Virus record (IMG/VR): IMGVR_UViG_2913177423_000001
Span: 1 to 64,000 of that record
Source of the DNA: a virus
Taxonomy: Duplodnaviria > Heunggongvirae > Uroviricota > Caudoviricetes
Length of the DNA stretch: 64,000 nt
Strand: one strand, 5' to 3'
Position numbers and translations under genes: made by a program
Notes under the pieces: generated by a model
What the model was told of the DNA's origin: nothing
What the model saw: only the letters and a program-made list of their open reading frames with translations
Database searches by the model: none
Shown: positions 9,842 through 48,094 of the stretch, piece after piece
Numbering within the stretch: position 1 is the first letter of the stretch
Layout of the letters: each line of letters opens with the position of its first letter

Positions 9842-10183
9842 GCTGTTGCTAAATCGCAATGTATGATCTGCATCATCGACTGAAATCATCCATTGCTGAA
9901 ATTTTTAGTTGATCTTCCTAATGTTCAGGCTTATATTCACGTCGTCGTAGCAAATTCTGCGACCAGGTTTGACAGCCTGAATGTTAGTGCGGACAACCGC
10001 AGATTTCCGATATTGCGGTATTTTTGTGTCCGTAAACCGCGTTACGCCCGAATTATGGTGGGGCGTGATGGGGAGGCTTCGGCCTGCTGGTTTCACTAAC
10101 GCCAGTCTGTCAACCCTGTCACGTCCTGCCACCTGTTTGACAGCGGGTAGCAGGTTGTTAAACCTGTTAGTGAGGCCGTAACT

Positions 10184-23811: not shown

Positions 23812-23888
23812 GGTGGTGTAGCTCAGTAGGATAGAGCAGCAGCCTTCTAAGCTGTCGGTCGGTGGTTCGAATCCACTCACCATCGCCA
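23812..23888 (+). tRNA. tRNA-Arg (anticodon UCU)
   Basis: cloverleaf readable by eye: acceptor GGTGGTG/CACCATC, D-arm GCTC-AGTAGGATA-GAGC, anticodon loop CTTCTAA, T-loop TTCGAAT, encoded CCA. Confidence 0.8.
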
Positions 23889-23892
23889 AATT

Positions 23893-23968
23893 GCCGATTT
23901 AGCTCAGTTGGTAGAGCAGTCGCTTTGTAAGCGAATGGTCAGCGGTTCGATCCCGTTAATCGGCACCA
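23893..23968 (+). tRNA. tRNA-Thr (anticodon UGU)
   Basis: acceptor GCCGATT/AATCGGC, D-arm GCTC-AGTTGGTA-GAGC, anticodon loop TTTGTAA, T-loop TTCGATC, encoded CCA. Confidence 0.8.
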
Positions 23969-25440: not shown

Positions 25441-25516
25441 GGCCCCTTAGCTCAGTGGTTAGAGCTGGCGACTCATAATCGCACGGCCATCGGTTCAAAT
25501 CCGGTAGGGGCCACCA
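25441..25516 (+). tRNA. tRNA with CAU anticodon, probably tRNA-Ile2 (lysidine) rather than Met
   Basis: acceptor GGCCCCT/AGGGGCC, D-arm GCTC-AGTGGTTA-GAGC, anticodon loop CTCATAA, T-loop TTCAAAT, CCA; 5-prime half resembles enterobacterial ileX as recalled. Confidence 0.75.
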
Positions 25517-45582: not shown

Positions 45583-46161
45583 ATGCAGAGACAGAGTTAT
45601 TGGGAGAAACAGAGACAAAAAGCCATGCAAAAACTGGCTGATCCGGAATGGCGGGAAGAGCAAAGGGCAAAACGTCTTCAGCAGGCTCAACGCCAGCAGC
45701 AACGCGCAAGGGAAAAAGCCGCATCGCCTGAATATCGTCAAAAGAAACTTGAAAAAGTGAGGCAAAGTGAACAGCGCAGAAGAGAGAGGGCGGCGTCAGC
45801 CCTCCCCAAAAAAACGCGCCCGTCACGCGGATTAAAAGGGAGATCACTCACAGCAGAAGAGCGCCGGATACAGGAGGCTATAGGCAAACTCCCCTGTATT
45901 GCCTGCCATCTTCACGGGAAGCATAGCCCTGTCGTATCTCTCCACCACATATTTGGCAGAACGGCTAAAGATGCCCATAAATACGTTCTCCCTTTGTGTA
46001 AATGGCACCACCAGCACGCAGCGCCAGCAGAGATCCGCGAACAATATCCCTGGTTGGTTCCTGTTCATGCTGATGGAAAAATAGGCGGGAAAGCAGATTT
46101 TATACGGCACAATGCCGAAGAGATGACGCTCTATCAGACGGTGCAAGAAATGGTGAATTAA
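45583..46161 (+). CDS. ref: Ref-like HNH endonuclease
   Basis: 192 aa; highly charged disordered N-terminus followed by HNH-like Cys/His cluster CIACHLHGKH and CKWHHQ, as in P1 Ref. Confidence 0.7.
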   Translation: MQRQSYWEKQRQKAMQKLADPEWREEQRAKRLQQAQRQQQRAREKAASPEYRQKKLEKVRQSEQRRRERAASALPKKTRPSRGLKGRSLTAEERRIQEAIGKLPCIACHLHGKHSPVVSLHHIFGRTAKDAHKYVLPLCKWHHQHAAPAEIREQYPWLVPVHADGKIGGKADFIRHNAEEMTLYQTVQEMVN

Positions 46162-46171
46162 TTTTCTAACA
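46155..46171 (-). promoter_or_regulatory. C1-like operator motif copy
   Basis: GAATTAATTTTCTAACA, 16 of 17 to consensus, overlapping the ref-like stop. Confidence 0.5.
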
Positions 46172-46952
46172 TTTTATGTTGAGTTTGAAATTTACTGATT
46201 GTACATTTTGATTAGATTGGTTCACCGCTCGACGCAACGAGACAAATCCTCAAGGATTTCGTATGATTGCCAATGTCATAGTTATGGCAGCGCAATACAG
46301 GTGGCTAAAAGCCCCCGTTGACTCACGGTGTTCCAACCTGTATTGCGCCGCCACCAGACCGTGGAACAGTCTGTGACGGCTTCGAAAGCAAGGAGTCACT
46401 ATGAACAATTACAAACTTTTCCCATCACTCACCGTCTACTCACGCAATAACCTGCGTTCTTTGCTCCCATCAAAACTGGAGGGAGTATCAAAATGACCGT
46501 TCGCTACCTGAATTATCAAATCCAGAACATCACTGGCGGTTGCTATGACTGGTTTGTCACTCTTGGTAAAGAAGTGATCACCGGGAAGCTGGATGAAGTG
46601 AAAGCTAAAGCAATGGCCTACGCCTGCAAGCAAGCCCAAAAGAAGAAAAGAAAAGCATAAGAAAACACACTGTTGCGCCCTGGCATTATCGTGGGGTATA
46701 TTTCTACGGCACCTTAGAAAAACGGGTGCCGGGATTGGTCTCCCGGTAATGTCAAAGGCGACACATAGACGCCGCAAGCGTCTTTTTTGTTGTCGGCGCA
46801 CTCGCACACCTATCAATGGTGGGCTGTGTGGTGGCTTCCTCGGAAGCGCCGGTTCCCTTTGACGCCGGTAAGACCAACTCCACACAGTCCACCGCCAGTA
46901 AGATTGGTCTCTTCGGCGGTGGTATCGTTCACTGTCAAAGGAGGCTGCCAAT

Positions 46953-47168
46953 ATGGCTACTACCCCTACCCCAACTCATTCTGAATTTATCTGGCGTTTC
47001 TATTCCTGCCAAAAACACCTGTATATCTGCGTAATGGCTGCTACCGAAGCAGAAGCTCGCTCATACCTTCCTGATACTCCCTGCATTTTTGCTGCCCGCT
47101 TCACTCTTGATGCGATGGAGATCCTCAATTACTGGAATCTGCCGATGAACTGCGTGGAGGTGCACTGA
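46953..47168 (+). CDS. hypothetical 71-aa protein, paralog of 10184..10408
   Basis: ATG with AAAGGAGG upstream; shares EFIWRF and AATEAEAR motifs. Confidence 0.5.
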   Translation: MATTPTPTHSEFIWRFYSCQKHLYICVMAATEAEARSYLPDTPCIFAARFTLDAMEILNYWNLPMNCVEVH

Positions 47169-48094
47169 TGAATCTGTCCATCTCTCAAAAAGCGACAATG
47201 ACCAGCATTGAGATCGCGGAGCTGGTAGGTAAGCGTCCTGATAACGTTAAACGCACCATTGAACACCTAGCGGAACGGGGCGTAATATCTTTTCCTCAAA
47301 TTGAGGAAAAGCCCACCGCAGGGCGCCCGGCGAGCTATTACGTCTTCGAAGGCGAGCAAGGCAAGCGCGACAGCATTATTGTCGTCGCACAGCTTTCTCC
47401 TGAATTTACCGCCCGGCTGGTGGACCGCTGGCGCGAACTGGAGAATGCCAGGGGACCGTTAAAAACAAAGGCCGAAATTCTGGCTGAAATGGCGCAAATG
47501 CATCTTGAGCATGAACGCAGGATCAACGCCGTAAATGCCCAGGTAGCCGAAGTTTCGGCACAAGTGTCCAGGGTCGCTGAAACCGTCGAGCAAATAAAGA
47601 AAGGCAATATGCCGGAAGGTTACATTGGCTACCGCCAGCTGGCGGCGAAATGTGGCTTGACTGAAGCCAAATGTCGCAACCTGGTCAACGCTTACCGTAT
47701 CCCCACCGATACGCATGAGTTTTTAACGCCCGATGGTTTGCTTGCCCGACGCTCCATTGTGGCCCTGGCCCCCTTCCGGAAAGCCTTTAAGCAGGTTATG
47801 TCGGAGGCCGAACCACGTAATAAACGCTGGTATCATCCAAAAATGGGCCTCTTTCAGGCAATCCACCATCCTTTACCGAAAATCCCAAAAGATAATCTGT
47901 CACTGCATACAGCCAGAGAGAAGATCAGAAGTGGATATGCAACGGTATGCCGTCGTGCCTCATGGTCTGAAGGTGTATGGGTATGGCCCGAAGGCGGATC
48001 AAGGAAGCACTGGCGCACTATCCGAGATGGTAAAATTCATGCTATTGATTTAGCGCCAGAGGATATGGTTGCTATGGACTGGATTGTTAGTTAA
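47168..48094 (+). CDS. Rha-family phage regulatory protein fused to a C-terminal small domain
   Basis: N-terminal MTSIEIAELVGKRPDNV; colinear with 10408..11115 plus 11112..11312 combined. Confidence 0.6.
   Translation: MNLSISQKATMTSIEIAELVGKRPDNVKRTIEHLAERGVISFPQIEEKPTAGRPASYYVFEGEQGKRDSIIVVAQLSPEFTARLVDRWRELENARGPLKTKAEILAEMAQMHLEHERRINAVNAQVAEVSAQVSRVAETVEQIKKGNMPEGYIGYRQLAAKCGLTEAKCRNLVNAYRIPTDTHEFLTPDGLLARRSIVALAPFRKAFKQVMSEAEPRNKRWYHPKMGLFQAIHHPLPKIPKDNLSLHTAREKIRSGYATVCRRASWSEGVWVWPEGGSRKHWRTIRDGKIHAIDLAPEDMVAMDWIVS

What the first reader, a model, noticed from the sequence alone, without database searches (positions are those of the whole stretch)
46493..46660. Unlisted 55-codon ORF with a strong ribosome-binding site
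An ATG at 46493 preceded by GGAGGGAG opens a 55-codon frame (MTVRYLNYQIQNITGGCYDWFVTLGKEV...) ending in a Lys-rich tail, in the region between the ref-like gene and Rha module B; it is below the size cutoff of the ORF track.
Basis: seen in the sequence. Interest (0 to 1): 0.2.

Follow-up and report, generated by a model that had tools for sequence, protein, structure and literature searches.

The report
Small gene under antisense-RNA control
The 55-codon frame is a real, conserved small protein gene of D6/P1-like phage-plasmids, already annotated elsewhere as "hypothetical", and it appears to be the last gene of a small operon switched by a C4-type antisense RNA; what the protein does is unknown.

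Summary
The ORF is at 46493..46660 (+) as described: GGAGGGAG lies 7 nt before the ATG and the tail is Lys-rich. An ORF this size is common by chance, so the case rests on relatives. The frame is kept at 48-58 aa in E. coli, Salmonella, Shigella and Enterobacter phage-plasmids. dN/dS is 0.02-0.15 in this frame and about 1 or more in four of the five other frames. It equals phage D6 orf85, several RefSeq "hypothetical proteins" and phrog_7786, so it is not a new gene.

The context adds more. A conserved promoter-like site and a C4-like RNA (46280..46358) lie just upstream. That RNA scores below Rfam's cut-off here, but 11 of its 18 outer-stem pairs show compensatory changes. Its loop co-varies across lineages with the ribosome-binding site of the next ORF.

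In more distant relatives that next ORF is a 61-aa Icd-like gene. Here it is a 31-codon remnant whose stop overlaps the orf55 start (ATGA). The arrangement ref - C4-like RNA - icd - orf55 resembles the P1 immI operon (c4-icd-ant), with this 6.3-kDa basic protein where the antirepressor would be.

No family or fold match gives a function. This is an ordinary gene in a modestly new regulatory setting.

The parts
46156..46176 (+). Operator-like motif AATTAATTTTCTAACATTTTA overlapping the ref stop codon; candidate C1-repressor operator (inferred)
   Evidence: The core TTCTAACA, with shared AATTA(A/G)(A/T)TT flanks in most copies, occurs 11 times in the window against 2.2 expected and at most 7 in 200 shuffles. 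Other copies lie upstream of ref (45512, - strand) and upstream of C4 module A (9832, - strand). It resembles the P1 C1 operator, read from P1 Oc1a. Binding was not tested.
46239..46267 (+). Promoter-like site GAGACA-17-TATGAT just upstream of the C4-like RNA
   Evidence: Found by the consensus scan. The same (A/G)AGACA-17-TAT(G/C)AT is kept at the same place in 7 of 8 divergent lineages.
46280..46358 (+). C4-like antisense RNA no. 1: long outer stem, two inner hairpins, b' loop UUGACUCA at 46318-46325, single-stranded a' GUUCCAAC at 46330-46337
   Evidence: Rfam C4 RF01695 scores 39.7 bits (cut-off 45, E 3.6e-5); the counterpart in L049 scores 48.1 bits, above the cut-off. MFE folds have the C4 shape. 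11 of 18 outer-stem pairs carry compensatory changes; 92.9% of cells are paired against 34-54% with slid partners. My model R1 finds it in loci outside the training set: L055 57 bits, L054 49 bits, L057 23.6 bits.
46362..46367 (+). a2 target UGGAAC, complementary to a'
   Evidence: Read from the sequence. In L057, a' GUUCCGGC matches a2 GCCGGAAC, a change on both sides.
46392..46399 (+). Shine-Dalgarno and b2 target GGAGUCAC of the leader ORF; GAGUCA pairs with b' UGACUC
   Evidence: b'/b2 co-vary across lineages: GTGACTC/GAGTCAC (L012), GGCTCC/GGAGCC (L055), GTAAGCTCC/GGAGCTTAC (L054), GTTGACTCC/GGAGTCAAC (L057).
46401..46496 (+). 31-codon leader ORF, a remnant of an Icd-like gene, whose stop TGA overlaps the orf55 ATG (ATGA)
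   Evidence: The alignment shows an internal gap of about 150 columns relative to the 61-aa Icd-like ORF of L012, L013 and L002. Those 61-aa ORFs match NF033153 at E 1e-12 to 3e-15; the remnant matches nothing. 13 of 14 distinct truncated versions end in ATGA. Codon variants are 3 synonymous to 12 non-synonymous, so the peptide is not constrained.
46478..46485 (+). GGAGGGAG, Shine-Dalgarno sequence of orf55
   Evidence: Read from the sequence. It lies inside the leader ORF. Most relatives have GGGGGTG instead.
46493..46660 (+). orf55: 55-aa, 6.3-kDa basic protein (pI 9.7), member of phrog_7786
   Evidence: phrog_7786, E 5.6e-41, full length; dN/dS 0.02-0.15; AlphaFold2 pLDDT 84: four beta strands and a C-terminal helix; pI and charge.
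46673..46702 (+). Possible promoter TTGCGC-18-TATATT of the next module, starting 13 nt after the orf55 stop (my reading, not called by the scan)
   Evidence: Read from the sequence. It would start transcription near 46709, where the isrK-like RNA model begins. No terminator lies between the orf55 stop and this element.
46709..46788 (+). Neighbour: isrK-like / a1-b1 element with an intrinsic terminator (46767-46783)
   Evidence: Rfam isrK 61 bits (cut-off 50) and a weak c4-a1b1 hit; terminator found. It belongs to the next module and is the first terminator downstream of orf55.
46812..46899 (+). Neighbour: canonical C4 antisense RNA no. 2, controlling icd (46953..47168) and Rha/Ant (47168..48094)
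   Evidence: Rfam C4 73.7 bits; NF033153 and PF09669 hits. Its a/b sequences differ from those of C4 no. 1 and co-vary with their own targets among relatives.

Best explanation
orf55 is a genuine protein-coding gene under purifying selection. It is the last gene of a short operon that copies the logic of the P1 immI operon (c4-icd-ant). A conserved promoter drives a C4-type antisense RNA. That RNA's b' loop and a' segment are complementary to the ribosome-binding region of the next ORF on the same transcript. In older lineages that ORF is a full Icd-like gene followed by orf55. In the window's lineage it has shrunk to a 31-codon leader with an unconstrained peptide, and its stop codon sits on the orf55 start (ATGA). 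By analogy with P1, while the C4-like RNA is abundant (established lysogen) it would block leader translation and so shut off orf55, through lost translational coupling and probably Rho-dependent polarity. Soon after infection, or when the balance is disturbed, the leader would be translated and orf55 made. Shown here: the gene is real, the RNA fold is conserved, loop and RBS co-vary, and the gene order is conserved. Inferred: the repression mechanism, its timing and the coupling. The protein's job is a guess. It is a small, very basic beta-sheet-plus-helix protein, and I think it most likely binds a nucleic acid or a regulatory protein in the lysis-lysogeny or host-takeover circuit, in the slot where P1 has its antirepressor.
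For: Coding: dN/dS is 0.02-0.15 in this frame and about 1 or more in four of the other five. The remaining antisense frame is low only because it shares wobble positions, and it is not open. The third-position bias has p 2e-6. Against L013, BLAST alignment covers only the C4-like region and exactly the ORF. Family: phrog_7786 full length; 120 plasmids; 35 IMG/VR contigs; remote homologues at 38-57% identity. Synteny: ref - C4-like RNA - Icd-like (61 aa) - orf55 - mat in L012, L013, L002, L055 and L057; in L054, a short contig that begins at the RNA, the order from the RNA to mat holds with one extra 226-aa ORF. In L049 a C4 above the Rfam cut-off directly precedes the gene. pTB423 (L015) matches the window at 95.8% up to the orf55 stop and is unrelated beyond it, so the gene belongs to the upstream unit. 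RNA: covariation in 11 of 18 outer-stem pairs; detection in untrained loci; b'/b2 and a'/a2 change together in five lineages; conserved promoter. Coupling: ATGA is kept in 13 of 14 leader variants, across two length variants (29 and 31 codons), while the leader peptide evolves neutrally. Precedents: P1 c4-icd-ant (PMC8198154); Gifsy-1 orf45-anrP, with an AUGA overlap, a non-conserved leader peptide and an experimentally required coupling (PMC4825925).
Confidence: 0.6

Rival explanations
1. A real gene, but expressed on its own. The C4-like RNA and the icd remnant would be decaying relics in this lineage, and orf55 would be translated from its own Shine-Dalgarno sequence on any transcript crossing it, possibly constitutively in the lysogen as an accessory 'moron' gene.
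For: The icd gene is truncated and its peptide evolves neutrally. The b'/b2 match is only 6 nt in the window and duplex energies are unremarkable. There is a strong GGAGGGAG with 7-nt spacing. Distant homologues exist without any C4.
Against: The C4-like RNA, its promoter and both target boxes are nearly invariant across the truncated-icd lineage, while the leader peptide drifts. The leader's frame and ATGA overlap are kept in 13 of 14 variants, including two length variants. Most relatives have a much weaker GGGGGTG before the ATG, which would favour dependence on coupling.
Confidence: 0.25
2. Not a gene. The frame would be open by chance and conserved because the DNA serves as RNA or regulatory sequence, for example a leader of the downstream isrK/C4/icd/rha module.
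For: ORFs of this size are frequent by chance. The region is dense in regulatory RNAs.
Against: Substitutions concentrate at third codon positions (24 of 32 variable columns, p 2e-6) with dN/dS 0.02-0.15. Proteins at 38-60% identity keep the same length and motif IxNxTGGxYxW. The gene persists in elements that lack the downstream module altogether (L002, L012, L013, L015, L055, L057).
Confidence: 0.03
3. The real gene is the 171-codon ORF on the opposite strand (46436..46951), part of which D6 annotates as orf84.
For: It is the longest ORF over the region. D6 annotates a minus-strand orf84 here, and there is a weak hit to phrog_24777.
Against: In that frame (rc0), 0 of 6-12 differences are synonymous in the three closest comparisons and dN/dS is about 1-2 where computable. 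It runs antisense across two Rfam-supported RNA genes. It has no Pfam or NCBIfam match. Its phrog hit covers only residues 60-95, which lie over the conserved RNA region.
Confidence: 0.02

Closest known systems
P1/P7 immI operon: c4 antisense RNA - icd - ant1/2
   Same: A promoter is followed by a processed C4-type RNA whose a'/b' segments pair with a2/b2 over the RBS of a small first ORF (icd), and the next gene is coupled to that ORF. A C1-operator-like motif lies upstream. It is found in P1-type phage-plasmids (PMC8198154; anatomy here).
   Different: The payload is a 55-aa protein with no similarity to Ant, Rha or KilA. The RNA belongs to a divergent subfamily, below the Rfam cut-off here and not found by Rfam in L002, L055 or L057. 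No a1/b1 element precedes it in the window. The icd gene is reduced to a 31-codon remnant. The unit sits between ref and mat rather than at the P1 immI site.
Gifsy-1 isrK - orf45 - anrP (Salmonella)
   Same: A small upstream ORF has its stop overlapping the next start (AUGA). Its nucleotide sequence is conserved but its peptide is not, its translation is required for the downstream gene, and it is occasionally fused in frame to that gene (PMC4825925). Compare here.
   Different: In Gifsy-1 the sRNA activates translation by remodelling the mRNA, and the payload is an antirepressor. Here the RNA is C4-like and predicted to repress, and the payload is orf55. The isrK-like element in the window belongs to the next module downstream.
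Phage D6 orf85 / phrog_7786 / RefSeq WP_000218500, WP_021551801
   Same: The same protein family at 87-98% identity and 55 aa, at the same locus downstream of ref.
   Different: None of substance. These entries are all 'hypothetical protein', with no function or regulatory context recorded.
P1 Coi (69-aa C1 inactivator) and other small antirepressors
   Same: A very small phage protein in the immunity circuitry. This is only a functional analogy suggested by orf55 occupying the antirepressor slot.
   Different: No sequence similarity at all: BLASTP finds no alignment at E up to 100. Coi is in immC next to c1, not behind a C4 RNA.

Membership tests
phrog_7786 (orf55 / D6 orf85 family) | Full-length match to the family profile | tested here: met
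   E 5.6e-41, residues 1-55 on profile positions 1-55 of 55.
phrog_7786 (orf55 / D6 orf85 family) | Conserved core motif and length in divergent members | tested here: met
   V3, I10, N12, T14, G15, Y18, W20, G31, L33 and K37 are invariant in 13 sequences down to 38% identity, at 48-58 aa.
C4 antisense RNA (Rfam RF01695), for 46280..46358 | Score at or above the curated gathering threshold (45 bits) | tested here: not met
   39.7 bits in the window and 38-40 bits in L001, L004, L012, L013 and L015. The counterpart in L049 reaches 48.1 bits.
C4 antisense RNA (Rfam RF01695), for 46280..46358 | C4 secondary structure (outer stem, two hairpins, single-stranded a') supported by covariation | tested here: met
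   92.9% of cells paired and 12 pairs with changes on both sides, 0 of 500 shuffles as high, slid controls 34-54%.
C4 antisense RNA (Rfam RF01695), for 46280..46358 | a'/b' complementary to a2/b2 over the RBS of the downstream ORF on the same transcript | tested here: met
   In the window: UGACUC/GAGUCA and GUUCCA/UGGAAC. Paired changes occur in L012, L054, L055, L057 and L002. The energy test was inconclusive.
C4 antisense RNA (Rfam RF01695), for 46280..46358 | A processed RNA of about 77 nt that represses in trans | not testable with these tools
   Needs Northern blots or RNA-seq and reporter assays.
Icd-like protein (NCBIfam NF033153), for the leader ORF 46401..46496 | Match to the Icd-like domain profile | tested here: not met
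   No hit for the 31-aa ORF. The 61-aa ORFs at the same position in L013, L055 and L057 hit at E 1e-12 to 3e-15. The alignment shows an internal gap of about 150 columns.
Antirepressor families (Ant, Phage_pRha, KilA-N, Bro-N) and P1 Coi, for orf55 | Sequence similarity to any antirepressor family | tested here: not met
   Pfam gives only sub-threshold DUF3319 (E 0.009, 16 bits against a 25-bit cut-off). NCBIfam and PADLOC give no hits, and there is no alignment to Coi.
immI-type operon (c4-icd-payload) | Gene order promoter - C4 RNA - icd - payload, conserved across relatives | tested here: met
   In L054 the order is seen only from the RNA onward. In the window icd is a remnant.
immI-type operon (c4-icd-payload) | Payload expression depends on translation of the upstream ORF | not testable with these tools
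   The only indirect evidence is that ATGA is kept in 13 of 14 variants.

The most novel reading that the evidence does not exclude
orf55 could be a new minimal (about 6 kDa) immunity effector of P1/D6-like phage-plasmids, for instance an antirepressor or co-regulator acting on C1 or on operator DNA. It would be gated by a third, orthogonal C4-type antisense RNA circuit. A D6-like element would then run three independent C4 switches (module A at 10051, C4 no. 1 at 46280, C4 no. 2 at 46812), each with its own specificity and payload. The tandem arrangement would let module 1 transcription feed into module 2.
Probability: 0.15. Interest if true: 0.55.

Novelty: new variant of a known kind. Interest (0 to 1): 0.3.

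Why it matters
The gene on its own is one more conserved phage "hypothetical". Its context is more useful. It shows that the C4-RNA/icd front end of P1 immunity is a portable switch that has been attached to a payload other than an antirepressor of the known families. It also shows that D6-like phage-plasmids, common in E. coli and Salmonella isolates, carry a third C4-type RNA that current annotation and Rfam thresholds miss. This turns a nameless ORF into a testable candidate for a role in the lysis-lysogeny decision. It also gives a natural example of an Icd gene decaying into a pure coupling leader.

Tried and rejected
- **Sequence searches for function.** A profile search of PDB sequences found nothing (E 1.7). 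Pfam, NCBIfam and PADLOC gave no usable hit. There is no similarity to P1 Coi.
- **Genome scan.** The genome-contig scan confirmed no locus.
- **RNA duplex energies.** Energies of the C4-like loop against the leader were no better than shuffled targets in three of four lineages. I therefore rely on paired sequence changes, not energies.
- **Minus-strand 171-aa ORF.** Rejected on its substitution pattern.
- **In-frame leader-orf55 fusions** (P0004, P0005, P0008, L016). These differ from the common form by small indels in or next to the G-run and A-run before the ATG and may be assembly errors. L003, which has indels throughout, was excluded as probably low quality.
- **Possible second, operator-proximal promoter** (TTGAGT-17-TACATT, 46179-46207). 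This is only my reading; it falls below the scan's threshold and is not claimed.
- **Literature.** The D6 genome paper (PMC5800970) and the P1 genome paper (PMC523184) are not held, so I could not check whether the upstream C4-like RNA was noted there.

Full report
**1. The observation**

The frame is exactly as described. The ATG is at 46493 and the TAA at 46658-46660, giving 55 codons: MTVRYLNYQIQNITGGCYDWFVTLGKEVITGKLDEVKAKAMAYACKQAQKKKRKA. GGAGGGAG occupies 46478-46485, and its second GGAG ends 7 nt before the ATG. A 55-codon ORF means little by itself, since 65 ORFs of at least 30 aa overlap the surrounding 6 kb. The question was therefore settled with relatives.

**2. Where the window comes from**

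The 1.1 kb around the ORF matches Escherichia phage D6 at 82.7% and 122 plasmids of E. coli, Salmonella and Shigella at about 80-91%. These are D6-like, P1-related phage-plasmids.

The ORF's neighbours are:
- ref at 45583..46161 (PF16786);
- an isrK-like / a1-b1 element at 46709..46788;
- a canonical C4 antisense RNA at 46812..46899 (73.7 bits);
- an Icd-like gene at 46953..47168;
- a Rha-type antirepressor gene at 47168..48094.

A second canonical C4 module lies at 9931-10136.

**3. It is a real gene, and already annotated**

The ORF corresponds to D6 orf85 (YP_009914762) and to RefSeq "hypothetical proteins" WP_000218500, WP_021551801 and others. It also corresponds to SE14_05061 in the curated annotation of pYU39_89 (PMC6799933 Table S1). 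It matches phrog_7786 over its full length (E 5.6e-41).

- **Frame conservation.** In a 16-sequence alignment of the ref-icd interval, the frame stays open at 55-58 aa in every sequence except L003. L003 carries indels throughout the alignment, so it is probably a poor assembly.
- **Codon-position bias.** Over codons 1-46, variable columns fall 15/10/34 by codon position, or 6/2/24 without the most distant sequence (p 1e-4 and 2e-6).
- **dN/dS.** Nei-Gojobori dN/dS is 0.02-0.15 in this frame and about 1 or more in four of the other five. The one antisense frame with a low ratio shares wobble positions with orf55 and is not open.
- **Island of similarity.** Against the S. dysenteriae and E. fergusonii plasmids, BLAST aligns only the C4-like region and exactly the ORF.
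- **The minus-strand ORF.** The 171-codon minus-strand ORF, partly annotated in D6 as orf84, shows no coding constraint.

**4. Wider family**

Searches of large protein collections found only close relatives plus a handful at 38-60% identity (P0015, P0018, P0020, P0021, P0022, P0024). The invariant positions are V3, I10, N12, T14, G15, Y18, W20, G31, L33 and K37. All members are basic. The Lys/Arg tail varies in sequence and is absent in two members.

**5. What lies upstream**

Rfam reports a sub-threshold C4 hit at 46280..46358 (39.7 bits against a cut-off of 45). Several lines show that it is real:
- It folds into the C4 shape.
- In seven divergent versions, 11 of 18 outer-stem pairs show compensatory changes. 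92.9% of cells are paired, against 34-54% when the partners are slid.
- The counterpart in IMG/VR contig L049 passes the Rfam cut-off at 48.1 bits.
- A covariance model built from these sequences finds the RNA in loci outside the training set: L055/L056 at 57 bits, L054 at 49 bits and L057/L058 at 23.6 bits.
- A promoter-like (A/G)AGACA-17-TAT(G/C)AT sits directly upstream in 7 of 8 lineages.

The RNA is followed by sequences complementary to its single-stranded a' segment and its b' loop. The b2 box is the Shine-Dalgarno region of the next ORF. These pairs change together across lineages:
- b'/b2: TGACTC/GAGTCA in the window, GTGACTC/GAGTCAC in L012, GGCTCC/GGAGCC in L055, GTAAGCTCC/GGAGCTTAC in L054, GTTGACTCC/GGAGTCAAC in L057.
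- a'/a2: GTTCCA/TGGAAC in most lineages, GTTCCGGC/GCCGGAAC in L057.

A duplex-energy test was not discriminating, so the argument rests on the paired changes.

**6. The ORF between the RNA and orf55**

In L012, L013, L002/L047, L054, L055 and L057, this ORF is a 61-aa gene; those of L013, L055 and L057 were scanned and match the Icd-like model NF033153. It ends 45-60 nt before orf55, with a conserved hairpin between the two genes.

In the window and most D6-like plasmids, an internal stretch of about 150 nt is missing. What remains is a 29- or 31-codon ORF that no longer matches Icd. Its peptide evolves neutrally: 3 synonymous against 12 non-synonymous codon variants, compared with 19 against 13 for orf55 in the same loci. 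Even so, its stop overlaps the orf55 ATG as ATGA in 13 of 14 distinct versions, across two length variants. A few records show in-frame fusions of leader and orf55; these may be homopolymer assembly errors.

Gifsy-1 orf45-anrP shows the same pattern: an AUGA overlap, a non-conserved peptide, coupling shown experimentally to be required, and a fusion in S. dysenteriae (PMC4825925).

**7. Architecture and evolution**

Three layouts exist.

| Layout | Order | Found in |
|---|---|---|
| (i) | ref - C4-like RNA - icd - orf55 - (terminator) - mat | Shigella, E. fergusonii and Enterobacter plasmids, and contigs with proteins at about 50% identity |
| (ii) | the same with icd reduced to a leader, placed directly upstream of a full isrK/C4/icd/rha module | the window, D6 and most plasmids |
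| (iii) | C4 directly followed by the gene | L049, L050 |

Plasmid pTB423 (L015) is 95.8% identical to the window up to the orf55 stop and unrelated beyond it. orf55 therefore belongs with the upstream RNA, not with the downstream Rha module. It occupies the position that ant occupies in P1 immI (PMC8198154).

The most distant homologue (P0024) sits in a run of small early genes of another phage type with no C4 detected. The protein is therefore not tied to C4 everywhere.

**8. Likely mechanism**

By analogy with P1 (Citron and Schuster 1990, cited in PMC8198154; Biere et al. 1992, from my own knowledge), the C4-like RNA would pair with the leader's RBS and block its translation. That would prevent orf55 expression through loss of coupling and through polarity. 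Expression would occur transiently after infection, or whenever the RNA is titrated.

An operator-like motif, AATTAATTTTCTAACA, occurs 11 times in the window against 2.2 expected. Copies lie at the 3' end of ref (46156-46176), upstream of ref and upstream of module A. It resembles the P1 C1 operator and suggests an additional layer of C1 control; this is inferred only.

No terminator separates orf55 from the isrK-like element. Transcripts through orf55 should therefore end at the isrK terminator (46767-46783) or read into module 2.

**9. The protein**

It is 6.3 kDa with pI 9.7 and net charge about +6.5. AlphaFold2 with a shallow alignment gives pLDDT 84: four beta strands in two hairpins followed by a 22-residue helix.

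There is no Pfam, NCBIfam, PADLOC or PDB sequence match and no similarity to P1 Coi. My best guess is a small binding protein, for nucleic acid or a regulatory protein, acting in the immunity or host-takeover circuit. My confidence in that is low.

**10. Verdict**

The gene itself is already in the databases as a hypothetical protein. Three points are new relative to the annotation and to the one paper that curated this region; that paper lists two c4 genes, neither of them this upstream RNA (PMC6799933):
- the third, divergent C4-type RNA;
- the decayed icd leader with a preserved ATGA overlap;
- the placement of orf55 as the payload of an immI-like switch.

This is a modest refinement rather than a surprise.

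Noticed in passing
window 46812-46899, 46696-46788, 46925-46945; L001, L004 and L005 in the alignment: The canonical C4 no. 2 exists in at least three specificity types among relatives. The a boxes are GGTCTC, GGAACC or GAGACC and the b boxes GTCAAAGG or GCAAAAGG. Each type changes in step in a1/b1, in the RNA and in a2/b2, which looks like heteroimmunity of the P1/P7 kind.
   Followed up: partly
window 9931-10183, 46280-46400, 46709-46950: The window carries three C4-type circuits with different a/b sequences. Module A uses CUGUCAA / UCACUAAC, C4 no. 1 uses GUUCCA / UGACUC, and C4 no. 2 uses AGACCAA / CCUUUGAC. They are probably orthogonal.
   Followed up: partly
window 8625, 9832(-), 20283(-), 21326(-), 22576(-), 22732(-), 31394, 32796, 45512(-), 46164, 57520: The core TTCTAACA, in most copies within AATTA(A/G)(A/T)TTTCTAACA(C/T)A, occurs 11 times against 2.2 expected. 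It resembles the P1 C1 operator and may be the operator set of this element's C1 repressor.
   Followed up: partly
L004 2236-2355, L005 2232-2351 and many RefSeq plasmids; equivalent to window ~46816-46935: RefSeq annotates an 'ash family protein' CDS lying almost exactly on the C4 antisense RNA. This is probably a spurious protein call over an RNA gene.
   Followed up: no
window 46436-46951 (-); D6 orf84: A 171-codon minus-strand ORF, partly annotated in D6, runs antisense to orf55, the isrK-like element and C4 no. 2. It shows no coding constraint and is likely spurious.
   Followed up: yes
L013 1945-1990, L002 2960-2985, L054 ~575-600: In relatives with a full icd gene, a hairpin lies between the icd stop and the orf55 ribosome-binding site (GCTGGTGG...CCACCAGC, or GCTGGCGG...CCGCCAGC). 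It shows a compensatory change and has no T-run. Its role is unknown, and it is deleted in the window's lineage.
   Followed up: no
P0004, P0005, P0008 (83-85 aa); L016: Some records encode an in-frame fusion of the leader and orf55, caused by small indels in or next to the G-run and A-run before the ATG. This could be real variation or homopolymer sequencing error.
   Followed up: partly
L055 2600-2962; L054 775-1455: Distant relatives carry extra uncharacterised ORFs beside the orf55 homologue: a 120-aa ORF between icd and orf55 in L055, and a 226-aa ORF just after it in L054. Neither has a family match.
   Followed up: no
window 23812-23965, 25441-25513: Three tRNA genes are present, as expected for a P1/D6-type element.
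   Followed up: no
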